DNA from: a virus
Lineage: Duplodnaviria; Heunggongvirae; Uroviricota; Caudoviricetes
Reading direction: 5' to 3' (one strand)
Length of the DNA: 36,308 bases
Virus record (IMG/VR): IMGVR_UViG_2563366905_000008
Shown here in pieces: positions 1 to 32,666 of the stretch (position 1 is the stretch's first letter; every line of letters starts with the position of its first letter). The notes under the pieces were generated by a model. The model was not told the origin of the DNA, searched no databases, and saw only the letters and a list, made by a program, of their open reading frames with translations. The translations under genes were made by a program, and so were the position numbers.

Positions 1-906
1 ATGAAAATAATACTTCTGTTTTTAGCAGCCCTGGCAAGTTTTACCGTACACGCACAGCCCCCCTCACAGACCGTAGAACAAACAGTCCGGCATATTTATC
101 AGAACTATAAATCAGATGCCACTGCCCCTTATTTTGGTGAAACCGGAGAGCGAGCGATAACTTCTGCGCGTATTCAACAGGCGCTTACCCTGAACGACAA
201 TCTTACGCTGCCGGGCAATATTGGCTGGCTGGATTATGATCCGGTTTGTGATTGTCAGGATTTTGGCGATCTGGTGTTAGAAAGCGTAGCGATAACCCAA
301 ACTGACGCCGATCATGCCGATGCCGTTGTGCGCTTTCGTATCTTTAAAGACGATAAAGAAAAGACCTCGCAGACACTGAAAATGGTGGCGGAAAATGGTC
401 GTTGGGTCATTGGCGATATTGTCAGCAATCATGGCAGCGTCTTACAAGCGGTTAATAGCGAGAATGAAAAAACGCTGGCCGCTATAGCTTCGTTGCAAAA
501 AGAACAGCCGGAAGCCTTTGTTGCCGAACTCTTTGAACATATTGCTGATTATAGCTGGCCGTGGACGTGGGTGGTTTCCGACTCTTACCGCCAGGCGGTC
601 AATGCCTTCTATAAAACCACCTTCAAGACGGCCAACAATCCCGATGAAGATATGCAAATAGAACGGCAATTTATTTACGACAATCCGATCTGTTTTGGCG
701 AAGAGTCGTTATTTTCACGCGTTGATGAAATTCGAGTCCTGGAGAAAACCACCGATTCCGCCCGCATTCATGTTCGCTTTACGCTGACCAATGGCAACAA
801 CGAAGAGCAAGAACTGATTTTACAGCGGCGCGAAGGTAAGTGGGAAATCGCTGATTTTATCCGCCCGAACAGCGGCAGCCTACTTAAGCAGATTGAGGCA
901 AAATGA
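1..906 (+). CDS. Secreted/periplasmic protein of unknown function; probable host chromosomal flank
   Basis: 301-aa ORF starting at window position 1. N-terminus MKIILLFLAALASFTVHA looks like a Sec signal peptide. The two halves of the protein look like a duplicated domain (DYDPVCDCQDF... vs IYDNPICFGEE...). No phage hallmarks. Confidence 0.6.
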   Translation: MKIILLFLAALASFTVHAQPPSQTVEQTVRHIYQNYKSDATAPYFGETGERAITSARIQQALTLNDNLTLPGNIGWLDYDPVCDCQDFGDLVLESVAITQTDADHADAVVRFRIFKDDKEKTSQTLKMVAENGRWVIGDIVSNHGSVLQAVNSENEKTLAAIASLQKEQPEAFVAELFEHIADYSWPWTWVVSDSYRQAVNAFYKTTFKTANNPDEDMQIERQFIYDNPICFGEESLFSRVDEIRVLEKTTDSARIHVRFTLTNGNNEEQELILQRREGKWEIADFIRPNSGSLLKQIEAK

Positions 907-1100
907 TCAGACATGAGATAAATGAAGGGGAATCCGTGAGATAAATAACGAATTGGAGTGGGTTACCACGGGTTCTGGTGAACAAAACTGAAATTCTTTT
1001 CCGCTATACGATAGATAAGTCGGGCATTGAAATCATCCTTCCTGGCAACTTAGAATCGAGTTTGCTGAAACATGATCCGTAACAAAAAAGGATGATTCCA

Positions 1101-1253
1101 ATGGCCACTAACAATAACAAACGTGACACTTTTGACTCCAGTGAAAAGCCTGAGGGCCTGGTTGTTGCAACTGTCATCAACTCGCGCAAGAAAAAGAGTT
1201 CGTCAGACACATCAAACAAGCCAGAGCAATCGTCACTCAAAGATAAGAAGTAG
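1101..1253 (+). CDS. Small hydrophilic 50-aa ORF (MATNNNKRDTFDSSEKPEGL...KDKK), hypothetical
   Basis: ATG at 1101 preceded by AAGGA about 9 nt upstream; in-frame TAG at 1251-1253. Low-complexity, Lys/Ser-rich. Below the ORF-track size cut-off, so found by reading the sequence. Confidence 0.25.
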   Translation: MATNNNKRDTFDSSEKPEGLVVATVINSRKKKSSSDTSNKPEQSSLKDKK

Positions 1254-1271
1254 TGTTCATGCCTGATGGTA

Positions 1272-1895
1272 TTACCGACAAACTCGTCGGATATCAACTC
1301 TGGCAATCTGTTCTGCAGGTATATAGGTTGCCAGAGTTCCCCATCCGTCATCTGCCACACCACTATCGCATTCTGTCCAGATATTGCTCCCGACTGTAGT
1401 CCGGTGCGTGACGTATAAGATTATATCTCCCTTATTACCTAACGTGACAGGACCGTTAGGCCGTCCTGCAAATCGCCCGGGTGCTCGTGAAAGTAAAACA
1501 GAGCCATCCTTAAGATATACATAGATTTCAGAAAAAGTGAAATCCATCTGATTGAACAATGACTGCCATGCTGAGCTGGTGTCATCAGACCACGAAATAT
1601 CATGATTCCACAGGAATCTGTACATCCATTTGCGACCGTATCTGCGCCACAATGCACCGTAAATAAAAGCGCAAAGAAGCGCTGGTGGTGTCGCAAGCCA
1701 CGAATTCAGACCTGCCCACATAACAGCCTGGTAAACCATCATTGACAGCAGGCCAAAAATCAGCGTCGTAAATGTCACCTCGATGGGCTTGTGATGGTCT
1801 TTCAGGCCCACGTTCGCAATAAAATAGCCGATGTATCCACTGGTCAGTGTCACCAGTGTTGCCCACGGCAGATTCAGCAGGGATGCATCAAACAT
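1272..1895 (-). CDS. Membrane protein, three N-terminal TM helices plus ~110-aa soluble C-terminal domain; possible prophage-edge cargo or host gene
   Basis: Track ORF 1272..1925; I place the start at the ATG at 1895 (MFDASLLNLPW...) because GGAGG sits 4-5 nt upstream. Hydrophobic segments at roughly residues 8-30, 44-64 and 75-95 of that product. Confidence 0.55.
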   Translation of the reverse strand: MFDASLLNLPWATLVTLTSGYIGYFIANVGLKDHHKPIEVTFTTLIFGLLSMMVYQAVMWAGLNSWLATPPALLCAFIYGALWRRYGRKWMYRFLWNHDISWSDDTSSAWQSLFNQMDFTFSEIYVYLKDGSVLLSRAPGRFAGRPNGPVTLGNKGDIILYVTHRTTVGSNIWTECDSGVADDGWGTLATYIPAEQIARVDIRRVCR

Positions 1896-1920
1896 ATTTC
1901 CTCCGGTGATATGCTTTTCC

Positions 1921-1962
1921 TGCAAGAATAAAAAAAGCGCAACAGGTTATCCATTGCGCTTT
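1921..1962 (-). terminator. Intrinsic terminator for minus-strand early transcript
   Basis: Perfect 9-bp stem AAAGCGCAA (1934-1942) / TTGCGCTTT (1954-1962) with 11-nt loop. On the minus-strand RNA it is followed by UUUUUUAUUCUU. Lies between the Cys-rich ORF and the membrane protein gene. Confidence 0.5.
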
Positions 1963-1990
1963 CTGAAAAACAGATATTTATTAAAGGGCA

Positions 1991-2233
1991 TTAATCCCTG
2001 GGTGGCGGGCTGTCACCAGTCAGACCTTTCCTGCAGTTCAGTACACACTTACCATTATTATCCAGGGAAAGGGATGCCCGATTAATTGCCTGTTCACATT
2101 TATGCAGAATTTCTCGTGCCCTGGCAACAGACAAACCGCAAAGGTGATGCCTGATAATGTCTTCTGCCACTTCTGTGCTGTCAGGTTCACTGTAAGCGAT
2201 ACAACCACGTAACCCACAGTTGCGCATAAACAT
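1991..2233 (-). CDS. Small Cys-rich protein (80 aa), hypothetical; last gene of early operon
   Basis: ATG at 2233 with GGAGG 4 nt upstream, directly after the mor stop. Six Cys residues. Followed by the terminator at 1921-1962. Confidence 0.5.
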   Translation of the reverse strand: MFMRNCGLRGCIAYSEPDSTEVAEDIIRHHLCGLSVARAREILHKCEQAINRASLSLDNNGKCVLNCRKGLTGDSPPPRD

Positions 2234-2251
2234 AAAGCCTCCGCGTTATAA

Positions 2252-2638
2252 TTAATCCCGGTCGTCATCCGGTTCGTCATCGTCTTCAAATAACTGCCCC
2301 TGTAACCGGCTGATTTCTTCTTTTCTTACACGCTTCACCACGCTGTAGACCCACTGAAGCGAAACACCAAATTTGCGGGCCAGTTCGTGGTGGTTGCGTC
2401 CGTTAAACTCCCTGAAGATTTCCCGGTCGCGCTGACTGACCTTCCATACCATGCCCATCGGAAAATAAACGTTTTGCCCGCCCCAGACCTGCATCATGCG
2501 GTTCGCGACGGCCTGACCAATCTGGTCGGCAACTTCGGGCTCAATATCAATAATCTCGCGAACGGTCTCAGAGGTATGCTGTGCCAGTTCCACCAGGAGT
2601 TCCGGCCCTTTACTTCGAAACTGATTCAGGTCGCTCAT
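2252..2638 (-). CDS. mor: Mor/C-family transcriptional activator (Mu middle operon regulator-like)
   Basis: 128 aa; C-terminal HTH region REIFREFNGRNHHELARKFGVSLQWVYSVVKR and acidic tail typical of Mor/C proteins; sits after the GemA-like gene as in Mu. Confidence 0.75.
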   Translation of the reverse strand: MSDLNQFRSKGPELLVELAQHTSETVREIIDIEPEVADQIGQAVANRMMQVWGGQNVYFPMGMVWKVSQRDREIFREFNGRNHHELARKFGVSLQWVYSVVKRVRKEEISRLQGQLFEDDDEPDDDRD

Positions 2639-3059
2639 GTTTGACTCCCGCAGCTCTGTGCTGCCACTTCTTCAGTTTCTCAATAACACTGCTTGCCTGT
2701 TCAGTACTGAGCCAGCGCAGGGCGCTGATGCCCGTTTCCCGCTTGATCCACCTCGCTAATGCATTTTCTGAACGGTCACGAACAATGCCGGCAGCAGCCA
2801 TTTCAAGCCATAGCGCACGAATTTTCCTGGACTGCGGATGGTTATCCAGCGGTAAACCGGAGCTGGCTTTTCTGGCTGGTTTAACGCGAAAGCCTTTCTT
2901 TTTCATGGATTCCAGCACGCAGTTTAGTTGTGTGGTATCCATTCCTTTGGTTGAGGCTTTACCGGTCAGCCCCTGTAACATCTGGCGGTAGGTGTCTTCA
3001 TCCATACCCAGTTCATTACGGGCAATATGGATAAGCTGTATCAGGCGTTTTTTCTGCAT
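2610..3059 (-). CDS. gemA: GemA-like protein (Mu gp16 / DUF1018-like)
   Basis: 149 aa; N-terminus MQKKRLIQLIHIARNELGMDEDTYRQML matches the GemA-family pattern as I recall it; positioned immediately upstream of mor. Confidence 0.65.
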   Translation of the reverse strand: MQKKRLIQLIHIARNELGMDEDTYRQMLQGLTGKASTKGMDTTQLNCVLESMKKKGFRVKPARKASSGLPLDNHPQSRKIRALWLEMAAAGIVRDRSENALARWIKRETGISALRWLSTEQASSVIEKLKKWQHRAAGVKHERPESVSK

Positions 3060-3060
3060 A

Positions 3061-3267
3061 TCATCTCCTTTTTTTCAGTCTGTCGGCAACAATGTCGGTT
3101 GCAGCTGGCAGGGTGACTGGCCAGAACAACATGACGGCGGTCATGTACAGGATGTAATGCGCGGTGTCGTAGTGCCTGCCATAGCCCAGGGAACGATGAA
3201 GTCTTGCGCTGCATGATCCTGCGTACATATACCAGAAAAGAAAACAGACAATGGTTTCAGTAGTCAT
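3061..3267 (-). CDS. Small membrane protein (68 aa), hypothetical
   Basis: Internal ATG at 3267 of track ORF 3061..3423, preceded by GGGGAGG about 8 nt upstream. Product MTTETIVCFLFWYMYAG... has two hydrophobic helices. Confidence 0.45.
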   Translation of the reverse strand: MTTETIVCFLFWYMYAGSCSARLHRSLGYGRHYDTAHYILYMTAVMLFWPVTLPAATDIVADRLKKRR

Positions 3268-3487
3268 TCTGAATACCTCCCCATTCGATATGAATATTAC
3301 GGGCAGCAATGACAGGGTCGTTATTCCACCATGCACCTGACATGTATTTTTCAACCTGTTCGCGTCCGGCAATAACACCAATTGTGATCCCCGGCCTGAC
3401 GTTCTTAAAAAAGGCGCGGGCAAAAAGGTATCTGGCAGATATTCGGCAGGCTTTTAATTTCCGGCTTTTACCTGATAGCGTAATCAT
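3257..3487 (-). CDS. Hypothetical early protein (76 aa)
   Basis: ORF tightly packed between neighbouring early genes on the same strand. Confidence 0.4.
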   Translation of the reverse strand: MITLSGKSRKLKACRISARYLFARAFFKNVRPGITIGVIAGREQVEKYMSGAWWNNDPVIAARNIHIEWGGIQNDY

Positions 3488-4167
3488 CTGGCCTCCAGTT
3501 TCTGTTGTGCCTGCCCACTGACCGGGCGGTGCAGTCTGACGTTCTGCCCTTCACGAAACCCCGCATAGCGCGAGGCGTCGCCATTGCGGCTTCTTCCCGG
3601 TTTACGCGCTCTGGTGGTTTGCGTTTGCGGGTATTTATGTTCCAGCCACTGCTGCATCAGTTCACGTTCGTCATCGGTCAGGGCGAAGGACTGTATTTCA
3701 CTGATAACGGCCAGCACCCAGCCTTCAGCAAACTGGTCACCACGGCTGGTACGGGTGGCAGTTTTTATTCTTTTGTTCTGTGTGCTGATATACTGCTGAC
3801 GCGCCTTTTTCAGCTGACGGGCCAGCACTTCCCAGGTGTATGCAGCCAGTGCCGCACGTTCCCGGTTGCCGTAGAACCCCACACCCGGATATGTGCCGGG
3901 GTGAATGATGGAGTTAACACCAAATGCCTCGCGGATGATGTTCATCAGGCCCAGCATGTAGCGCGGTGGACGGAGACTGCCTGTCGGCCAGTAATGACTG
4001 ATGGTTTCATCAATATCACTCATGGCAATGTCGGAATGTGTGATGCCGTGAACATCCATCAGTTTACGGGCACGGCGCAGTGCCAGAGCGGCCTCGTGTG
4101 GGTTGCCGGATGCGGCCAGCGCCAGCAACTTTTTCAATTTCTCAATGTGTTTATTCTGGTCTGTCAT
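3484..4167 (-). CDS. Hypothetical early protein, possibly DUF2786-like
   Basis: 227 aa; N-terminal KLKKLLALAASGNPHEAALALRRARKLM motif; stop overlaps next gene start (ATGA-type coupling). Confidence 0.6.
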   Translation of the reverse strand: MTDQNKHIEKLKKLLALAASGNPHEAALALRRARKLMDVHGITHSDIAMSDIDETISHYWPTGSLRPPRYMLGLMNIIREAFGVNSIIHPGTYPGVGFYGNRERAALAAYTWEVLARQLKKARQQYISTQNKRIKTATRTSRGDQFAEGWVLAVISEIQSFALTDDERELMQQWLEHKYPQTQTTRARKPGRSRNGDASRYAGFREGQNVRLHRPVSGQAQQKLEAR

Positions 4168-5036: not shown

Positions 5037-5567
5037 TTACTGCACATCCTGCTCAAAAGGAATTATTGAAAAATCCTCAATATCGCTTTTTATGGTAATA
5101 CCGGGAATATTTTTCACGGCCTCTTTTTCATTCAGGATGGCGTCTTTATTTATTTCCTCTTTTACACGAATAAAGCGCTCAAGCCCCAGACGTCTCAGTA
5201 GTTCAATAACATTATCCGCTCCGCGAATGCTGACTGACGGCGGACGGTTTCGCCACTGCACCTCGCCGGTGGTGAGGTTAGCAAACTTCACCTTCCCGTT
5301 GCCGGTCAGTTCATCACGGTGTGCCTCACACCATGTCTGAATACCGGACTGCAGTTCGGCCATGCGTTTTTTCAGGCTCTCGGTGAGCGGGGCATAACGT
5401 GCGGTGATATCGCCAATGGCGTCATTCATTTCTGTTTCAGCCCTGACCAGTTCACGTTGTGCGTCACCGAGCAGTCTGATGCCCTCAATGACCTCTTCGC
5501 GTGTCCCTGGTACCCAGAGTGCCGCTGCGGACTTGATACGTTTTGCCCCTTTTGTACTTTTTGCCAT
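5037..5567 (-). CDS. gam: Gam-like host-nuclease inhibitor / DNA end-binding protein
   Basis: 176 aa; long stretches match Mu Gam as I remember it (RIKSAAA, ETEMNDAI, WCEA.RDELT, RPPSVSIRG, ERFIR, DFSIIPFEQ). Confidence 0.85.
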   Translation of the reverse strand: MAKSTKGAKRIKSAAALWVPGTREEVIEGIRLLGDAQRELVRAETEMNDAIGDITARYAPLTESLKKRMAELQSGIQTWCEAHRDELTGNGKVKFANLTTGEVQWRNRPPSVSIRGADNVIELLRRLGLERFIRVKEEINKDAILNEKEAVKNIPGITIKSDIEDFSIIPFEQDVQ

Positions 5568-5866: not shown

Positions 5867-7033
5867 TTAAACCCCTTTGACAACGTCAGCGTTGACCTGT
5901 GGAACCCCGATTTCAGCGGCCAGATTCATGGCGGCTATTACCAGGTTACTGACGGCCAGCGGATACAGCAGGCTGACCATATTTTTACGATGACTTCCCG
6001 GATTGCTCAGGCGGGCGCGTATGGCATCCACTGCGCTGGCGTCCATAATGTCCGTCAGTTGTTTACCGGCCCGTTGCAGTTTGAACGTCAGAAACTCTTC
6101 AAGGTTATTGTCCAGAGGCAGAAGTTCGACCACCTCACAGCGCTGAACGACTTCACGGACTTCCATATTGCGTTCAGACAGTTTTGTCGCCAGTTCCGGC
6201 TGGCCAATCAGCACGATGGACAGCAGTTTTTTGAAACCGGACTCCAGCTCAAAAAAGCGTTTGAGGTGTTTCAGTGTCGGAATAGGCAGACTGTGGGCCT
6301 CCTCAATCACCAGAACGTGGCTGAACCCCGCCTGGCTGCTGTCTTTCAGGACGCGATGCAACTGGCGAAAGCGGGCGTCCTGACTGCGTCTGATGCTTTC
6401 CAGTGGTGCGATGGTACTGATAATGGCTTCGGCAATCGCTGCTGCCTTCAGGGTTTTCCCTTTCACATCGTTGTCTTCCATAGCGATGATGTATGGCTCG
6501 ATAACAATTACCGGCGCATTCTCGCGGTTGATACGTTCAGTCAGGTCGCGGCGCAGCGTGGATTTACCCGCACCGGACTCACCGATGACGGCCATAAACC
6601 CACCATGACGGGCTGTCTGGTACAACGCCTCACGCACGTAGCGAATGTCCGGGGTGGTGAACACATCATCAGAACCCTGCATGGCTTCGTCGGCGAACGG
6701 GTCACGGAAAAGACCAAACGCTTTTTTGGTTGCCGGGAATAACACCTGTTTTTTGAGTAACATATTCTCTTCCTCACTGAGGCTCGTTTTATCTGTGGTA
6801 CCCGCTGTACGGGGCGTGGTCGCGCCCTGTACAGCATCAAAACTCTTCGCTGTATCAATCCCCTGACTTTCCAGCCAGGACGCAAGACGCCGGCGCACTT
6901 CTCCGGGGCTGGTGCGGGGCCACGCGTTATGATTCACAATCTGGGCCAGCGTGGCCTCAGAAACATCGACAGCTCTCGCCACCACCGCCTGTGGAATACG
7001 GGCCTCTTTCAGTTGCTGCTTCAGTACCAGCAT
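5867..7033 (-). CDS. Transposition ATPase (Mu B-like AAA+ protein with N-terminal HTH)
   Basis: Walker A GESGAGKST and Walker B VLVIEEAH. I place the start at the ATG at 7033 (MLVLKQQLKEA...), which has GGAGG upstream and sits just after the transposase stop. Confidence 0.85.
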   Translation of the reverse strand: MLVLKQQLKEARIPQAVVARAVDVSEATLAQIVNHNAWPRTSPGEVRRRLASWLESQGIDTAKSFDAVQGATTPRTAGTTDKTSLSEEENMLLKKQVLFPATKKAFGLFRDPFADEAMQGSDDVFTTPDIRYVREALYQTARHGGFMAVIGESGAGKSTLRRDLTERINRENAPVIVIEPYIIAMEDNDVKGKTLKAAAIAEAIISTIAPLESIRRSQDARFRQLHRVLKDSSQAGFSHVLVIEEAHSLPIPTLKHLKRFFELESGFKKLLSIVLIGQPELATKLSERNMEVREVVQRCEVVELLPLDNNLEEFLTFKLQRAGKQLTDIMDASAVDAIRARLSNPGSHRKNMVSLLYPLAVSNLVIAAMNLAAEIGVPQVNADVVKGV

Positions 7034-7043
7034 GTTTCCCTCC

Positions 7044-8813
7044 TCAGTTGCCGTTAACAATGCTGATAACACTGCTGCGGGCCGGTGTGGTCAGCGTGGC
7101 CATGACTTCATCCAGTGCGGCTTCCGGTACGCCGTCCGGGTACTGTGCCGTTAACTGGCGGTAATGTTCCGGCGTCCAGGTAAGGCCGTCGGCGCTGAAC
7201 TTATCGCGCAGGGCTTTCGCGGCCTCCACATGAGTCATGGGACGTTGTTCAGTGCGCGGCCCGCGTACGTCAGAGGCCTGACCACGCTTCGGCATATAGG
7301 CCGGAAGTGTGGTGTCGTCGATATGTTTATACGGGTCAAGCTGCCCGCCGAACGGCAGCGCCTTCGCCTTGCGTGCGGCGGCTGCATCTGCGGCGTTGTC
7401 TGTACCGGTAACCAGCGCTTCGGTTTCTTTTGCCGCCATCTGTGCCGGGGTTTCCGGCAGGGCTTTGTAACTTTCGCCAAATACCGCCGCGCCTTCAGCA
7501 AAGCCAAACTCGTTCTTTCTGACCTCTTCGACCAGGAAGAACGTCTCGTGGCCGTCCTCACCGGTCAGAACCACCTGTGCCACATCGCTGCGCCACGGGT
7601 TACGGGTAATCATCAGTTTTTCACCGACCAGTACGTCAGGTACCGTTGATACGTCAAATTCAGTGCCCCGGAACGAGACACGAAGTTTTGGCGTGACTTT
7701 GCGGAGTTCTGGTGCCGCCACAGCCAGTTCACGGCATACCTCAACGGAAGGCGCTTTTTTCAGCTGCTCAGCAGTAATCTTCAGCCAGATATCCGTGCGG
7801 GTTTTACCGTGGCGGCTGTGAACAGCCGTGGCGTTAAAGTGGCTGCGCCATTTCGCGGCCAGCGCGTTGAGTTCTTCCAGACTGTGAACCGGCCGGAACT
7901 TCAGACCCGGCTCCAGCTTGCGTTCGATAATGTCACGCGCCTTTTCCACCTGTCCGGTGGCGCGGGCGTTATGCGGCTTGTGCGCTATCAGGTCGATGCC
8001 CAGTGAGCGGCACATGTTTTTCGTCATACCCGCGGTGTTTGCCGAGCCGGGGTCGAGATAGAGTATTTTCGGCACGCCGTGCAGCACGTCTGCGCCGCCA
8101 CGCTCCTGCATGGCGTTGATAAGCACAGAACACAGGTTCTCACCGGATTCCGCGCCCGTCACATACTCAACGTAAATCCAGCCGCTGGCATGGTCGGTAA
8201 TCTCGTAACTCCACACGCGGTCACTGGCGATACGGGCAAGGTTAGCGGGCTTGTTCTTGTAGAACTTCGCGCTGTCCATCACCTGCAGCCCTTTATGTCC
8301 ATTGCTCAGGTAGTAAAGCGTGCAGAGTGAGGCGTCAATCTGCCAGACATGATTGGGATGCAGACTGGCCACTTCGGTATGCGGCGCAGGGGCATCCAGT
8401 TGTTCCGGGTGCAGGCCATAGTTACGCAGGGCACGACTGATGGCATCTTCGGACAACGGGAAAAACTCACCGGTGGTTTCATCTGTTCTGCCTGCGGTGA
8501 TAAAGCCGTTAGCCCGCAGGGTTTCCACTGCATCTGCGATGGAATAGAGACGCTTACCGTTCTTGCGGGTGGCCTCACGCAGTGTGGCAGATATCAGCGC
8601 GGCTTCGTCGCGGGTCAGGGCGCTGCGCCCGGCATCGGCGCGTTTTTTGCGTTTATCAGTCACAGAGACCTCCTTCAGCCTGCGCAGCAGAGTGGCGCGG
8701 GACATGCCAAGTTCAGCACAGGCAGCGTCATATATTGCACCGCGTTTACCATGCCCCGCGTCACGTGCCGCGCGGGCGACATAAACCAGTCGTTCAGTCA
8801 GGGCAGCATTCAT
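7044..8813 (-). CDS. Mu-type DDE transposase (A protein)
   Basis: 589 aa; N-terminal HTH (GMSRATLLRRLKE); integrase-core motifs VWQIDAS, LYLDPGSANT and QVEKA; GGAGG RBS. Confidence 0.9.
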   Translation of the reverse strand: MNAALTERLVYVARAARDAGHGKRGAIYDAACAELGMSRATLLRRLKEVSVTDKRKKRADAGRSALTRDEAALISATLREATRKNGKRLYSIADAVETLRANGFITAGRTDETTGEFFPLSEDAISRALRNYGLHPEQLDAPAPHTEVASLHPNHVWQIDASLCTLYYLSNGHKGLQVMDSAKFYKNKPANLARIASDRVWSYEITDHASGWIYVEYVTGAESGENLCSVLINAMQERGGADVLHGVPKILYLDPGSANTAGMTKNMCRSLGIDLIAHKPHNARATGQVEKARDIIERKLEPGLKFRPVHSLEELNALAAKWRSHFNATAVHSRHGKTRTDIWLKITAEQLKKAPSVEVCRELAVAAPELRKVTPKLRVSFRGTEFDVSTVPDVLVGEKLMITRNPWRSDVAQVVLTGEDGHETFFLVEEVRKNEFGFAEGAAVFGESYKALPETPAQMAAKETEALVTGTDNAADAAAARKAKALPFGGQLDPYKHIDDTTLPAYMPKRGQASDVRGPRTEQRPMTHVEAAKALRDKFSADGLTWTPEHYRQLTAQYPDGVPEAALDEVMATLTTPARSSVISIVNGN

Positions 8814-10814: not shown

Positions 10815-10845
10815 CCGGAAAGCATTGTGCTTTCCGGTTTTGTTT
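10815..10845 (+). terminator. Intrinsic terminator downstream of repressor gene
   Basis: Perfect 9-bp stem CCGGAAAGC / GCTTTCCGG with 5-nt loop, followed by TTTTGTTT; abuts the stop of the convergent methyltransferase gene. Confidence 0.55.
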
Positions 10846-11609
10846 CAGAAGTTGCAGATTACCAGTTCACGGCGCGGCGTGGGTTTACCCGCCAGACTGT
10901 AGTTGATATTCACCGTCTGTATGTTCAGTTCAGTGAACACCCGACGCATCTGCGGAATGTCGTTCACCGAGATAATCATCTTTCCTCTGATGCACCGGGC
11001 CAGTTCTGCGAGTAGTGTGTAGTTCTCTTCAGGAAAATCCACACCATAGCCTTCCGTACCCAGGTACGGTGGGTCGCAGTAGAACAGCGTGTGCGGACGA
11101 TCATAACGCTCAATGCACTGTTGCCAGTCCATGTGTTCTATGACTGTTCTGGAAAGCCGCAGGTGTGCTGCTGACAGTTCTTCTTCAATACGCAGCAGGT
11201 TGAAGCGTGGCGGGGATGTGGTGGAGGTACCGAAGCTGTGCTCTGCCACCTTGCCGCCAAACGCCTGCTTCTGAAGGTAGTAGAACCGTGCCGCACGCTG
11301 GATATCCGTCAGTGTTTCTTCCGGGGTGATCTGCAGCCATTTGTAGATCTGACGGCTGACCAGCGCCCATTTGAACTGGCGGACAAATTCTTCCAGGTGA
11401 TGCTTTACCACCCGGTACAGATTCACCAGTTCACCGTTGATATCATTAATGACTTCGATCTTGCCGGGTGTCTTAAGAAAATAGAGCGCTGCTGCCCCAC
11501 AGAACGGCTCCACATAACATTCATGCGCCGGAAACAGCGGCAGAATGTGTTTTGCAAGGCGGCGTTTGCCACCAATCCATGGAACGATGGGTAATGTCTG
11601 CATTTTCAT
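10845..11609 (-). CDS. DNA N6-adenine methyltransferase (Dam-like, D12 class)
   Basis: 254 aa; AdoMet-binding motif EPFCGAAALYF near the N-terminus and catalytic DPPY motif (FYCDPPYLGTEGY). Confidence 0.85.
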   Translation of the reverse strand: MKMQTLPIVPWIGGKRRLAKHILPLFPAHECYVEPFCGAAALYFLKTPGKIEVINDINGELVNLYRVVKHHLEEFVRQFKWALVSRQIYKWLQITPEETLTDIQRAARFYYLQKQAFGGKVAEHSFGTSTTSPPRFNLLRIEEELSAAHLRLSRTVIEHMDWQQCIERYDRPHTLFYCDPPYLGTEGYGVDFPEENYTLLAELARCIRGKMIISVNDIPQMRRVFTELNIQTVNINYSLAGKPTPRRELVICNF

Positions 11610-13198: not shown

Positions 13199-13218
13199 TC
13201 TTAACGCGCTTTAAAATC
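13199..13218 (+). promoter_or_regulatory. Candidate late promoter element, copy 1 of TCTTAA-N5-TTTAAWATC
   Basis: TCTTAAcgcgcTTTAAAATC, 50 bp upstream of the first lysis gene; same motif and spacing recur at 26296 and 32647. Confidence 0.35.
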
Positions 13219-13268
13219 CTTCGCGCCCTGTATTTGTGATGCTGTCTCCACCAGACAAGGAGACACAC

Positions 13269-13619
13269 ATGAAAAACCTGAAAAAATTCATTCCCCCTGT
13301 TAAAAAACCTCGCCTCAGCGGCTGGCTGCTGACCTCAGTGCTGTTGCTGGGCACCATCGCTCTGGTCTCACCACAGCAGTTACCTGTTGTGATCTACAAG
13401 CTGGCACTCATCACACTGGCAGCAGTGCTGGGTTACTGGCTTGACCGTTCGCTCTTCCCCAAAGCCCGTCCCGGTCAGTACCTGAAACATGACGACAGGC
13501 TGATGGCTGAAGGGCGTTTCCCTGTGCAGACCGGCCTTCACCTTGTATTTTCTGCTGCGTTAATCCGCCGTGCACTGATTGTTGCAGCGGTCTGTCTGGC
13601 TGTGGCAACAGGACTGTGA
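13269..13619 (+). CDS. Membrane protein, holin candidate
   Basis: AAGGAGA RBS 5 nt before ATG at 13269; about three hydrophobic helices; immediately precedes the endolysin gene. Confidence 0.5.
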   Translation: MKNLKKFIPPVKKPRLSGWLLTSVLLLGTIALVSPQQLPVVIYKLALITLAAVLGYWLDRSLFPKARPGQYLKHDDRLMAEGRFPVQTGLHLVFSAALIRRALIVAAVCLAVATGL

Positions 13620-20377: not shown

Positions 20378-20397
20378 TTCTAAAGCAGATTAAAATC
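20378..20397 (+). promoter_or_regulatory. Degenerate copy of the late-promoter motif upstream of the scaffold/protease gene
   Basis: TTCTAAagcagaTTAAAATC, about 55 bp upstream of the ATG at 20453; 4/6 and 8/9 matches to the two halves of the motif. Confidence 0.3.
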
Positions 20398-26275: not shown

Positions 26276-26299
26276 AGGGGCTTCGGCCCCTTTCTTCTT
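26276..26299 (+). terminator. Intrinsic terminator after the 93-aa ORF
   Basis: GGGGC-TTCG-GCCCC hairpin followed by TTTCTTCTT. Confidence 0.55.
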
Positions 26300-26315
26300 A
26301 ATCCCCTTTAATATC
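26296..26315 (+). promoter_or_regulatory. Candidate late promoter element, copy of TCTTAA-N5-TTTAAWATC
   Basis: TCTTAAtccccTTTAATATC, 52 bp upstream of the tail chaperone start; overlaps the T-tract of the preceding terminator. Confidence 0.35.
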
Positions 26316-32646: not shown

Positions 32647-32666
32647 TCTTAAACGCCTTTAATATC
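32647..32666 (+). promoter_or_regulatory. Candidate late promoter element, copy of TCTTAA-N5-TTTAAWATC
   Basis: TCTTAAacgccTTTAATATC, 32 bp upstream of the W-like ATG. Confidence 0.35.

What the first reader, a model, noticed from the sequence alone, without database searches (positions are those of the whole stretch)
1272..2233. Genes at the early-arm terminus: Cys-rich 80-aa protein, terminator, then a separately transcribed membrane protein
After the Mor-like gene the early operon carries a small Cys-rich protein and then a strong intrinsic terminator (1921-1962). Immediately beyond it, a 207-aa membrane protein gene with its own GGAGG RBS follows. Prophage-edge membrane proteins are often superinfection-exclusion or abortive-infection cargo, but this gene could instead be host DNA with the prophage end lying inside 1896-1990.
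Basis: inference. Interest (0 to 1): 0.5.

Follow-up and report, generated by a model that had tools for sequence, protein, structure and literature searches.

The report
Prophage-end membrane gene behind a terminator
The membrane-protein gene belongs to a Mu-like transposable prophage, not to the host; it is optional phage cargo from an uncharacterised family (three membrane helices plus an Sm-like barrel) set behind a conserved terminator, and its function is untested.

Summary
The 80-aa ORF (1991-2233, -), a strong intrinsic terminator (stem 1932-1964, T-run 1930-1936) and a 207-aa membrane-protein gene (1272-1895, -) with a GGAGG ribosome-binding site are all present.

Host yqhG homology stops at 903. 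The prophage end (TGATCAGAC...) starts at 904. The same end, gene and terminator occur at other chromosomal sites in other strains. Two sister insertions carry 6-bp target duplications, not 5-bp.

The module is optional cargo. 132 E. coli genomes have the gene, while 642 have the adjacent GemA-Mor genes. The ST131 relative ends about 150 bp after mor.

The protein is a borderline relative of Pfam DUF6338 (phrog_12870). It has three transmembrane helices and an Sm-like C-terminal barrel, and matches no defence, PDB or MscS sequence. Relatives sit in unrelated prophages and mobile elements.

"Separately transcribed" is plausible but unproven. A weak sigma-70-like promoter (TGGATA-17-TATTCT) is embedded in the terminator. 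A late-promoter-type box (TTAA-N6-TTAA) lies just upstream.

The function, exclusion or abortive infection, is inferred and not shown.

The Cys-rich ORF is a rare orphan gene and its cysteines are mostly not conserved.

The parts
1..903 (+). Host gene yqhG, truncated by the insertion. The intact gene continues ...GGCAAAA ACCGCCGCCAGATTAAAACAATGA; here the phage's TGA supplies the stop codon.
   Evidence: Megablast to 5,424 E. coli genomes ends at 903. The intact locus was read in strain APEC E18055.
904..950 (+). Left end of the transposable prophage. It starts TGATCAGAC and carries two direct repeats TGAGATAAAT (914-923 and 937-946), which are likely transposase-binding sites.
   Evidence: Identity with the CUVET21-PYO5 prophage starts exactly at 904. 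The other end of that prophage reads TGATGCGCCGCGCGATAAATG...GTGCGATAAATGG in inverted orientation. The ends are conserved in alignment A3. 6-bp duplications CCCTCT (L007) and CGGCGC (L032) flank sister insertions.
1027..1056 (+). Sigma-70-like promoter (TTGAAA-18-TAGAAT, 10/12) inside the phage end, pointing inward toward the small ORF.
   Evidence: Promoter scan. AGAATC of the -10 region is invariant in six aligned phage ends, including Serratia copies and a solo end on a plasmid (A3).
1101..1253 (+). Small hydrophilic ORF of 50 aa from ATG 1101 (53 aa from ATG 1092), convergent with the membrane gene. It belongs to family phrog_15726, of unknown function.
   Evidence: PHROG hits: 3.5e-5 for the window copy, 1e-41 for the DA33135 copy, 1.3e-6 for the Serratia copy. 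NCBI's pipeline annotates it in DA33135, C51 and strain 3-72. A conserved N-terminal motif NNK.D..D.SEKP is visible.
1272..1895 (-). Gene for a 207-aa inner-membrane protein with three transmembrane helices and a C-terminal Sm-like beta-barrel. It matches phrog_12870 and is a borderline relative of Pfam DUF6338.
1900..1904 (-). Ribosome-binding site GGAGG of the membrane gene.
   Evidence: Read directly from the sequence. It is conserved across loci in alignment A2.
1925..1953 (-). Candidate weak sigma-70 promoter embedded in the terminator. The -35-like TGGATA (1953-1948) lies in the top of the stem and the loop, the spacer is 17 nt, and the -10-like TATTCT (1930-1925) follows the T-run directly.
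   Evidence: It is the best promoter-like site within 110 nt upstream in 6 of 10 variants (8/12 matches), across three unrelated lower stems. It was below the scan tool's threshold. There is no experimental support.
1932..1964 (-). Intrinsic terminator of the early operon. It has a 14-pair stem followed by a T7 run (1930-1936).
   Evidence: A hairpin plus T-rich run is conserved at this position in 10 of 10 relatives, with different stem sequences.
1981..1994 (-). TTAATGCCCTTTAA: a late-promoter-type dyad (TTAA-N6-TTAA) that overlaps the stop codon of the 80-aa ORF and ends 18 nt before the hairpin. It is a presumed binding site for the Mor-family activator.
   Evidence: The window has 4 matches against 0.16 expected by chance. 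The other three precede late operons, each with a -10-like hexamer 24-29 nt downstream. A box or near-box lies between mor and the hairpin in 9 of 10 relatives.
1991..2233 (-). Orphan 80-aa ORF, the last gene of the early operon in this variant.
   Evidence: Only 4 protein clusters are known. A 78-aa homologue at 35% identity occupies the same position in strain ST69 and is annotated there. Against L003 there are 9 synonymous and 8 non-synonymous codon changes. It has no family match. The AF2 model has pLDDT 49. It is absent from the C51/DA33135 and Klebsiella variants.
2252..2638 (-). Gene for the Mor-family transcription activator.
   Evidence: Pfam Mor at 9.3e-44.

Best explanation
Region 904-2233 is the variable cargo end of the early arm of a roughly 38-kb transposable (Mu-like) prophage. 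In this prophage the early operon runs outward toward the left end.

Shown:
- The phage end is at 904.
- The membrane gene, the terminator and a convergent small ORF travel with the phage to different chromosomal sites.
- The module is dispensable for this phage group.
- The terminator is conserved as a structure.

Inferred, expression: early-operon transcripts (Mor plus the 80-aa orphan protein) stop at the terminator. The membrane gene is expressed on its own from a weak sigma-70-type promoter. Its -35 lies in the terminator's stem-top and loop, and its -10 (TATTCT) directly follows the T-run. Mor bound at the TTAA-N6-TTAA box just upstream may boost it.

Inferred, protein: the product is an N-out/C-in inner-membrane protein. 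Its cytoplasmic Sm-like barrel probably assembles it into a ring.

Inferred, function (weakest step): it acts at the membrane to exclude or abort infection by other phages, which benefits the lysogen.
For: Phage, not host:
- Searches show the same module next to ydgC/folM, gspL, yfiB, ygfM and xylR in different strains.
- 6-bp duplications flank two sister insertions.

Optional cargo:
- 132 genomes carry the gene against 642 with GemA-Mor.
- The EC958 prophage has an intact phage end about 150 bp after mor.

Moron-like spread of the family:
- One relative lies between the capsid and head-completion genes of an HK97-like prophage.
- Others lie beside tape-measure genes, a reverse transcriptase with an FtsH-like protease, and a resolvase.

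Terminator.

Embedded promoter: TGGATA or TAGACC, a 17-nt spacer, then TAT(T/G)CT is retained across three unrelated lower stems.

Activator box:
- 4 matches against 0.16 expected.
- The geometry at the three late promoters puts the box centre near -42.5. This resembles the Mu Pm Mor site centred at -43.5 (PMC4390567).
- In the Serratia, Citrobacter and Salmonella relatives, a -10-like hexamer (AACAAT, CAATAT, CAACAT) sits exactly 24-29 nt after the box, so the predicted start falls in the 5' arm of the hairpin.

Against: - Nothing tests the function. There are no hits to PADLOC, Pfam, NCBIfam or PDB sequences.
- The embedded promoter scores only 8/12. It fell below the scan threshold and is missing in the Citrobacter, Klebsiella and Serratia variants.
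- In the window's variant no acceptable -10 lies 24-29 nt after the box (GCAATG is there), and the box-to-hairpin distance varies among variants: 10, 18 or 30 nt.
- Where present, the protein is more conserved than Mor (57-66% against 34-43% identity in the Klebsiella, Serratia, Citrobacter and Salmonella loci). That would also fit a role in the phage's own cycle.
- Ring assembly and membrane topology are inferences. No multimer model was made.
Confidence: 0.45

Rival explanations
1. The membrane gene serves the phage's own lytic cycle. It would be a Mor-activated middle or late gene, for example a lysis-timing or holin-like pore or a membrane anchor, rather than a benefit to the lysogen.
For: - A late-promoter-type box lies between mor and the gene in 9 of 10 variants.
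- In three genera the box is followed by a correctly spaced -10-like hexamer. This is the same position that Mu's middle promoter Pm is thought to occupy downstream of mor (recalled, not checked; the Mor site geometry is from PMC4390567 and PMC4287176).
- The protein is better conserved than Mor across genera.
- A three-helix N-out/C-in topology is that of class I holins (my own knowledge). The helical part gives weak holin matches in BFVD at E 0.006-0.5.
Against: - The gene is absent from the ST131/EC958-type prophage, which has an intact end, and from about 80% of E. coli genomes that carry this GemA-Mor.
- A separate holin, transglycosylase and lysis cassette exists at about 13.2-15 kb.
- Relatives occur in unrelated phages at moron positions.
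- The holin matches are not significant.
- The window's own variant lacks a good -10 at the activator distance.
Confidence: 0.25
2. The gene has no promoter of its own. It is expressed only by residual read-through of the terminator from the early promoter, so the terminator acts as an attenuator that sets a low dose of a potentially toxic membrane protein.
For: - No site of 9/12 or better lies between the terminator and the start codon.
- In Serratia only 12 nt separate the T-run from the ribosome-binding site of the downstream ORF.
- The gene has the same orientation as the early operon in every relative.
Against: - The terminator is strong: a 14-pair stem, U7 and -19.8 kcal/mol.
- The stem-top and loop hexamer and the TAT(T/G)CT hexamer keep a 17-nt spacing across unrelated stems.
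- An activator box is conserved upstream.
Confidence: 0.2
3. The membrane gene is host DNA and the prophage ends inside 1896-1990.
For: None was found. The only argument is the terminator lying between the early operon and the gene.
Against: - yqhG homology ends at 903 in 5,424 genomes, and none has this gene next to yqhG.
- Window 904-3100 is 100% identical at another locus in CUVET21-PYO5.
- The terminal repeats and the TG end lie at 904-946.
- The gene is found in only 132 of 5,426 genomes, and in every locus inspected it lies inside the prophage.
Confidence: 0.01
4. The protein is a small MscS-type mechanosensitive channel, since both have three transmembrane helices followed by a cytoplasmic Sm-like beta domain.
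For: The architecture and inferred topology are alike. My own knowledge of MscS: N-out, three transmembrane helices, a middle beta domain with an Sm-like fold, and a heptamer.
Against: - The profile-to-sequence comparison with E. coli MscS gives probability 0.2%.
- There is no Pfam MS_channel hit.
Confidence: 0.03

Closest known systems
Phage morons and lysogenic-conversion cargo at prophage edges, such as lambda bor/lom, P2 old/tin, HK97 gp15 and P22 SieA (recalled from my own knowledge)
   Same: - It is a self-contained accessory gene at the extreme end of a prophage and is insulated by a terminator.
- It varies in presence among otherwise near-identical phages.
- It is found in unrelated phages at inter-module positions.
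- It encodes an inner-membrane protein.
   Different: - It has no sequence or fold relationship to any named exclusion or abortive-infection protein.
- The candidate promoter is embedded in the upstream terminator rather than being a clear stand-alone promoter.
- No phenotype is known.
Pfam DUF6338 (PF19865), an uncharacterised family, and PHROG 12870
   Same: - The window protein matches phrog_12870 at 1e-99 over its full length.
- 13 of 29 family members match DUF6338 over the TM2-TM3-linker region.
   Different: - The window protein itself gives no Pfam hit at E <= 0.1.
- Of the six relatives scored individually, four matched at 23.9-28.5 bits, around the 26.5-bit cut-off, and only one passed.
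- Neither family has a known function, and only one paper in the library mentions DUF6338.
Phage Mu middle promoter Pm and Mor (Mor dimer on two 5-bp inverted repeats separated by a G/C-rich 6-mer, centred at -43.5; PMC4390567, PMC4287176)
   Same: - A 5+6+5 dyad (ATTAA-TGCCCT-TTAAT) lies just downstream of mor.
- The same dyad type sits about 42.5 nt upstream of the predicted starts of three late operons in this prophage and in two relatives.
   Different: - Here the downstream gene is a membrane protein, not a C-type activator.
- In this variant no -10 sits at the Pm-like distance.
- Binding by this Mor protein is untested.
BcepMu-type transposable phages. This layout is recalled from memory; the BcepMu paper itself could not be read here.
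   Same: - The early operon (transposase, MuB-like ATPase, Gam, GemA, Mor) points outward to one end.
- The lysis, head and tail genes lie on the other strand.
- The termini are TG...CA and insertion sites vary.
   Different: - No DNA or protein match of this module exists in any sequenced phage record except one 32%-identical ORF.
- The target duplication measured here is 6 bp.
Sm/LSm/Hfq ring proteins
   Different: - Sequence identity is only 10-23%, and no Sm profile hit was found.
- The domain is fused to three membrane helices.
- RNA binding and ring formation are untested.

Membership tests
Transposable (Mu-like) prophage: is the gene inside the element? | Element termini with a terminal TG and repeated transposase-binding motifs in inverted orientation at both ends | tested here: met
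   The left end reads TGATCAGACATGAGATAAATG...GTGAGATAAAT at 904-946. The right end of the identical prophage in CUVET21-PYO5 reads TGATGCGCCGCGCGATAAATG...GTGCGATAAATGG. The window itself stops inside the tail-fibre gene, so its own right end is not visible.
Transposable (Mu-like) prophage: is the gene inside the element? | Short target-site duplication flanking the element, with different insertion sites in different genomes | tested here: met
   The 6-bp duplications are CCCTCT (L007) and CGGCGC (L032). Insertions lie at yqhG, folM/ydgC, gspL, yfiB, ygfM, xylR and ycaL. CUVET21-PYO5 carries three copies. The duplication of the window's own copy (expected GCAAAA) could not be checked.
Transposable (Mu-like) prophage: is the gene inside the element? 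| Mu-type early genes: DDE transposase, MuB-like ATPase, Gam, GemA and Mor | tested here: met
   Pfam matches GemA at 1e-40 and Mor at 9e-44. RefSeq annotation of the identical prophage lists the integrase/transposase, an ExeA-family ATPase and Gam.
Intrinsic (Rho-independent) terminator | A G+C-rich hairpin immediately followed by a U-run, and more stable than shuffled sequence | tested here: met
   14 pairs plus T7. -19.8 kcal/mol and z = -3.8.
Intrinsic (Rho-independent) terminator | Structure conserved while the sequence changes | tested here: met
   Stems are GCGCAA/TTGCGC, GCACGGTA/TACCGTGC, ACACAGTGG/CCACTGTGT, GGGCAGA/TCTGCCC, GAAGATGAGC/GCTCATCTT and GCACG/CGTGC. Each sits before a T-rich run at the same position. 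Termination in vivo was not tested.
Pfam DUF6338 (PF19865) | Score at or above the gathering threshold of 26.5 bits | tested here: not met
   The window protein has no hit at E <= 0.1. Relatives score 23.9-28.5 bits and one of six passes. 13 of 29 match at E <= 0.01. I treat this as a sister group, not a member.
PHROG 12870 | Full-length profile match | tested here: met
   E = 9.9e-100, residues 1-205 on profile positions 1-204 of 210. The family has no assigned function.
Known anti-phage defence, superinfection-exclusion or abortive-infection families | Sequence match to a PADLOC model | tested here: not met
   No PADLOC family at E <= 1 for the membrane protein, the 80-aa ORF or the 53-aa ORF.
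Known anti-phage defence, superinfection-exclusion or abortive-infection families | Protection phenotype on phage challenge | not testable with these tools
   This needs expression in a naive host followed by plaque assays.
MscS mechanosensitive channel family | Homology to the MS_channel core (TM3 plus beta domain) | tested here: not met
Holins (class I, three transmembrane helices) | Significant sequence or fold match to a holin family, and location in a lysis cassette | tested here: not met
   Only non-significant BFVD matches at E 0.006-0.5. The phage's annotated holin lies elsewhere (window ORF 13236-13619). The extra 110-residue Sm-like domain is atypical for holins.
Mor-dependent (Pm-like) promoter | A 5+6+5 dyad centred about 43 nt upstream of the start, with a -10 hexamer but no -35 | tested here: inconclusive
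   The dyad is present (1994-1981) and enriched, with 4 matches against 0.16 expected. The expected -10 position holds GCAATG in the window. In the Serratia, Citrobacter and Salmonella relatives it holds AACAAT, CAATAT and CAACAT.
Zinc-ribbon or Cys-rich small protein (the 80-aa ORF) | Conserved Cys/His ligand pattern | tested here: not met
   Only C63 is invariant once the ST69 homologue is aligned. There is no family hit. The AF2 model has pLDDT 49, showing two helices and a hairpin.

The most novel reading that the evidence does not exclude
The DUF6338-like proteins (three transmembrane helices plus an Sm-like barrel) are a widespread, uncharacterised phage-borne membrane effector: 523 clusters at 50% identity, found in Mu-like and HK97-like prophages and in mobile islands of Gamma- and Alphaproteobacteria. 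They would form ring-shaped pores or gates that exclude or abort superinfecting phage. In this phage group the gene would be wired through an unusual compact element in which the early-operon terminator hairpin also carries the gene's own promoter. Either the -35 lies in the loop, or, in other genera, a Mor-box promoter starts inside the 5' arm of the hairpin. Upstream transcripts would then terminate while the gene's own transcripts cannot form the hairpin.
Probability: 0.25. Interest if true: 0.6.

Novelty: new variant of a known kind. Interest (0 to 1): 0.4.

Why it matters
It settles the boundary question: the prophage starts at 904 and clips the last codons of yqhG.

It turns a vague 'edge membrane protein' into a defined candidate. 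That candidate is an optional, mobile, well-conserved phage cargo family with a distinctive architecture and no known function. It is present in about 2% of complete E. coli genomes and in many other Proteobacteria.

If it proves to be an exclusion or abortive-infection effector, it adds a new membrane-acting family to prophage-encoded defence.

The work also yields a testable late-promoter motif (TTAA-N6-TTAA followed 23 nt later by a -10-like hexamer) for this common group of E. coli transposable prophages. It further yields a testable overlap of terminator and promoter.

Tried and rejected
- **Host-DNA reading.** Rejected by locus comparison.
- **5-bp duplication.** Rejected; two sister insertions show 6 bp.
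- **Hairpin as the Mor site.** The arms differ completely among phages with similar Mor proteins, so the hairpin is an RNA structure, not a conserved DNA site.
- **Sigma-70 promoter between the T-run and the ribosome-binding site.** There is no room for one: 12 nt in Serratia and about 20 nt here.
- **MscS relationship.** hhalign gives 0.2%.
- **Holin relationship.** Only non-significant BFVD matches.
- **Defence-model search.** Nothing found. NCBIfam gave only noise. The PDB sequence search gave only noise.
- **Sequenced phages.** The only tblastn hit is a 32%-identical ORF at the end of a 20-kb 'Synechococcus phage' record, and its neighbours are uninformative.
- **Structure of the 80-aa protein.** pLDDT is 49, too poor for a fold search. 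The ST69 homologue could not be added to the alignment submitted for prediction.
- **afdb50 fold search.** The library was not available.
- **Literature.** DUF6338 appears in one unrelated paper. The BcepMu primary paper is not in the library. The KS10 paper gave no usable detail on this module.
- **E. coli relative with the Citrobacter/Salmonella-type upstream region.** A search for one, to inspect its late promoters, found none.
Full report
**What is in the sequence**

The window begins with host gene yqhG (1-906, +). On the minus strand, reading toward the window's left edge, lie these genes:
- a DDE transposase (7044-8813)
- a MuB-like ATPase (5867-7072)
- Gam (5037-5567)
- a DUF2786 protein (3484-4167)
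- GemA/gp16 (2610-3059)
- Mor (2252-2638; Pfam Mor 9e-44)

Next comes an 80-aa ORF with six cysteines (1991-2233). Its ATG lies 18 nt after the Mor stop and follows a GGAGG.

A hairpin with 14 pairs (1964..1932) and a T7 run follows. The terminator scan finds it. As RNA it folds at -19.8 kcal/mol, with z = -3.8 against shuffles.

The 207-aa ORF runs from the ATG at 1895 to the stop at 1272, preceded by GGAGG at 1904-1900.

**Where the prophage ends**

- Megablast of 1-3100 against 5,426 complete E. coli genomes matches yqhG in 5,424 of them, and the match always ends at 903.
- Window 904-3100 is 100% identical to a segment of strain CUVET21-PYO5, where it lies next to ydgC.
- In an uninterrupted genome yqhG continues ...GGCAAAA ACCGCCGCCAGATTAAAACAATGA. 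The element therefore begins with TGATCAGAC at 904, removes the last codons of yqhG and supplies a TGA stop.
- The first 45 nt carry two direct repeats TGAGATAAAT (914-923 and 937-946).
- The other end of the CUVET21-PYO5 copy reads TGATGCGCCGCGCGATAAATG...GTGCGATAAATGG in inverted orientation. The flanking host DNA there shows a 6-bp duplication, CCCTCT.
- A second, diverged relative in strain C51 is flanked by CGGCGC.

The expected 5-bp duplication is therefore 6 bp in this phage group.

The prophage is about 38.4 kb. Its lysis, head and tail genes and a Gin-like invertase lie on the other strand. The window stops inside the tail-fibre gene, so its own right junction cannot be read. CUVET21-PYO5 carries three copies. 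The membrane gene lies 368 bp inside the element, which refutes the reading that it is host DNA.

**The module is optional cargo**

In other E. coli strains the same end, small ORF and membrane gene lie at gspL, yfiB, ygfM and xylR.

The stretch between mor and the phage end varies:

| Variant | Content between mor and the phage end |
|---|---|
| ST131 strain EC958 | nothing; an intact end TGATTAGACTTGAGATAAATGA lies about 150 bp after mor |
| C51, DA33135, strain 3-72 | terminator, membrane gene, convergent small ORF |
| Klebsiella | terminator and membrane gene (no convergent ORF was called) |
| the window | the same, preceded by the 80-aa ORF |
| ST69 | the same, preceded by a 78-aa homologue at 35% identity |
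| Serratia | a 95-aa ORF placed after the terminator |

The membrane gene is found in 132 of 5,426 genomes. GemA-Mor at 95% identity or more is in over 600.

Outside Enterobacterales, relatives at 30-45% identity occur in these settings:
- between the capsid and head-completion genes of an HK97-like prophage (Pseudochrobactrum)
- beside tape-measure and tail-tip genes (Ensifer and a Rhizobiaceae genome)
- next to a reverse transcriptase and an FtsH-like protease (a Rhizobiales genome)
- next to a resolvase (Afipia)

This is how morons behave.

One counterpoint: where the gene is present in the Mu-like lineage, it is better conserved than its neighbours. In the Klebsiella, Serratia, Citrobacter and Salmonella loci it is 57-66% identical, against 34-43% for Mor.

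**The protein**

It matches phrog_12870 at 1e-99, a family with no function. It has no Pfam, NCBIfam or PADLOC match. A search of 5.8 billion proteins gave 71 homologues, none with a functional name: all 'hypothetical' or unnamed except one cluster labelled only 'DUF6338 family protein'. A profile search of 1.84 billion representatives found 523 clusters, and nearly all of the 150 listed are stand-alone proteins of about 200-215 aa.

Thirteen of 29 aligned members touch Pfam DUF6338. Those checked score 23.9-28.5 bits against a cut-off of 26.5. I call it a sister group of DUF6338 rather than a member.

The basic stretches KDHHK after helix 1 and RRYGRK after helix 3 suggest an N-out/C-in topology with the Sm-like domain in the cytoplasm. 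That is my inference from the positive-inside rule.

Sm domains usually form 6- or 7-membered rings. A ring of 18-21 helices is therefore a reasonable but untested model.

**How the gene may be expressed**

The hairpin plus T-rich run is present at the same place in all ten Enterobacterales variants examined, yet the stems are unrelated in sequence. This argues for a selected RNA structure: the terminator of the early operon.

There is no space for a promoter between the T-run and the ribosome-binding site. Two cis-elements stand out.

*First element: a promoter inside the terminator.* The top of the stem and the loop keep a -35-like hexamer: TGGATA in the window, L003, ST69 and strain 3-72, and TAGACC in DA33135 and Serratia Ag1. 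It sits exactly 17 nt upstream of TAT(T/G)CT, which directly follows the T-run.
- This 8/12 site is the best promoter-like match within 110 nt in 6 of 10 variants, across three different lower stems.
- It was below the scan tool's 9/12 threshold.
- It is absent in the Citrobacter, Klebsiella and Serratia L010 variants.

*Second element: a late-promoter-type box.* TTAA-N6-TTAA occurs four times in the window against 0.16 expected by chance.
- Three copies (13201, 26298 and 32649) lie upstream of the lysis, tail-assembly and baseplate operons. Each is followed 24-29 nt later by GATGCT, CATACT or AATACT. All three are conserved in two diverged relatives.
- That places the dyad centre near -42.5. 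In Mu, the Mor dimer binds two 5-bp inverted repeats separated by a G/C-rich 6-mer, centred at -43.5 (PMC4390567, PMC4287176).
- The fourth copy (1994-1981, TTAATGCCCTTTAA) overlaps the stop codon of the 80-aa ORF and ends 18 nt before the hairpin.
- A box or near-box lies between mor and the hairpin in 9 of 10 variants.
- In the Serratia, Citrobacter and Salmonella variants a -10-like hexamer (AACAAT, CAATAT, CAACAT) sits exactly 24-29 nt after the box. The predicted start then falls inside the 5' arm of the hairpin. Such a transcript could not form the terminator.
- In the window's variant the corresponding position holds GCAATG, so Mor-dependent initiation here is unproven.

I therefore regard separate transcription as plausible. 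Its route (embedded weak promoter, Mor-activated, or mere read-through) remains open.

**The 80-aa ORF**

- It has a good ribosome-binding site and lies inside the early operon.
- Its family is tiny, with four clusters.
- Against the 90%-identical copy there are 9 synonymous and 8 non-synonymous codon changes, with most nucleotide differences at third positions (3/6/10). This suggests mild purifying selection.
- The 78-aa ST69 homologue keeps the core IIRH..GL....AR..L..C and a proline-rich tail, but only one cysteine (C63) is invariant across the alignment. A zinc-binding role is therefore not supported.
- NCBI's pipeline annotates the ST69 copy but not the window-type copy.
- The structure prediction was poor, with pLDDT 49.

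It is best described as a real but orphan accessory early gene.

**Verdict**

The cargo interpretation is supported in its structural sense, and the host-DNA alternative is refuted. The defence function remains an inference from context.

Novelty is moderate:
- an uncharacterised but widespread phage cargo family with a distinctive fold combination
- a possibly dual-purpose terminator/promoter element
- a defined late-promoter motif for this prophage group

Noticed in passing
window 13201-13214, 26298-26311, 32649-32662 (+); weaker variant at about 20381-20394: TTAA-N6-TTAA boxes lie upstream of the lysis, tail-assembly and baseplate operons. Each has a -10-like hexamer (GATGCT, CATACT, AATACT) 24-29 nt downstream. 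A degenerate copy (CTAAAGCAGATTAA followed by CAAACT) lies before the head protease gene. These are probably the Mor-dependent late promoters of this prophage group, and they are conserved in L032 and L035.
   Followed up: partly
window 1027-1253 (+): A conserved 50-53-aa hydrophilic, Ser/Lys-rich ORF (phrog_15726) has its own conserved sigma-70-like promoter inside the phage end. It converges on the membrane gene, with only 18 nt between the two stop codons. Its transcript would run antisense through the membrane gene up to the hairpin at 1932-1964, which reads as a weaker terminator in that direction.
   Followed up: partly
window 913-1057; for example L006 3001-3144 (plasmid pEND_Eco 18055): A solo copy of the prophage left end (about 144 bp, 88-89% identical) lacks the terminal 9 nt but includes the inward promoter. 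It occurs on roughly 109 E. coli plasmids (about 125-240 kb, many from poultry) and at some chromosomal sites, and is unannotated there.
   Followed up: partly
L007 4044-4053 and 42455-42460; L032 about 3745 and about 40920: This phage group makes 6-bp target duplications (CCCTCT and CGGCGC), not the 5 bp of Mu. Both termini start with TGAT.
   Followed up: yes
NZ_CP116948.1 (strain CUVET21-PYO5): This genome holds three copies of a prophage identical to the window's over its left-end genes (membrane gene, Mor and GemA) at different sites, which suggests recent transposition. No genome in the collection has the window's yqhG junction.
   Followed up: partly
L033 (ST131 strain EC958) 2800-2965: The common ST131 relative of this prophage lacks the whole terminal module. 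Its phage end lies about 150 bp after mor, next to ycaL.
   Followed up: yes
L020 371-6460: In a Rhizobiales genome the family member sits between an FtsH-like AAA protease and a reverse transcriptase (RVT_1). This looks like a defence-island neighbourhood.
   Followed up: no
L035 30363-30911 and 38813-39205: The related prophage in mouse E. coli strain 3-72 carries two Mor-family genes. One lies next to the repressor region and one is at the usual place before the membrane gene.
   Followed up: no
PP438431.1 94-726 (L037): The only sequenced-phage record with a homologue (32% identity) is a 20-kb 'Synechococcus phage Ssp-JY41'. There the gene also sits at the very end of the record. Its neighbours are all hypothetical proteins.
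   Followed up: partly
window 10845-11609 (-); L012-L014: The prophage encodes a Dam-like methylase in its regulatory region (annotated in relative L032). A distant homologue of the membrane protein (43% identity) lies directly downstream of a D12-class methyltransferase on short metagenomic contigs.
   Followed up: no
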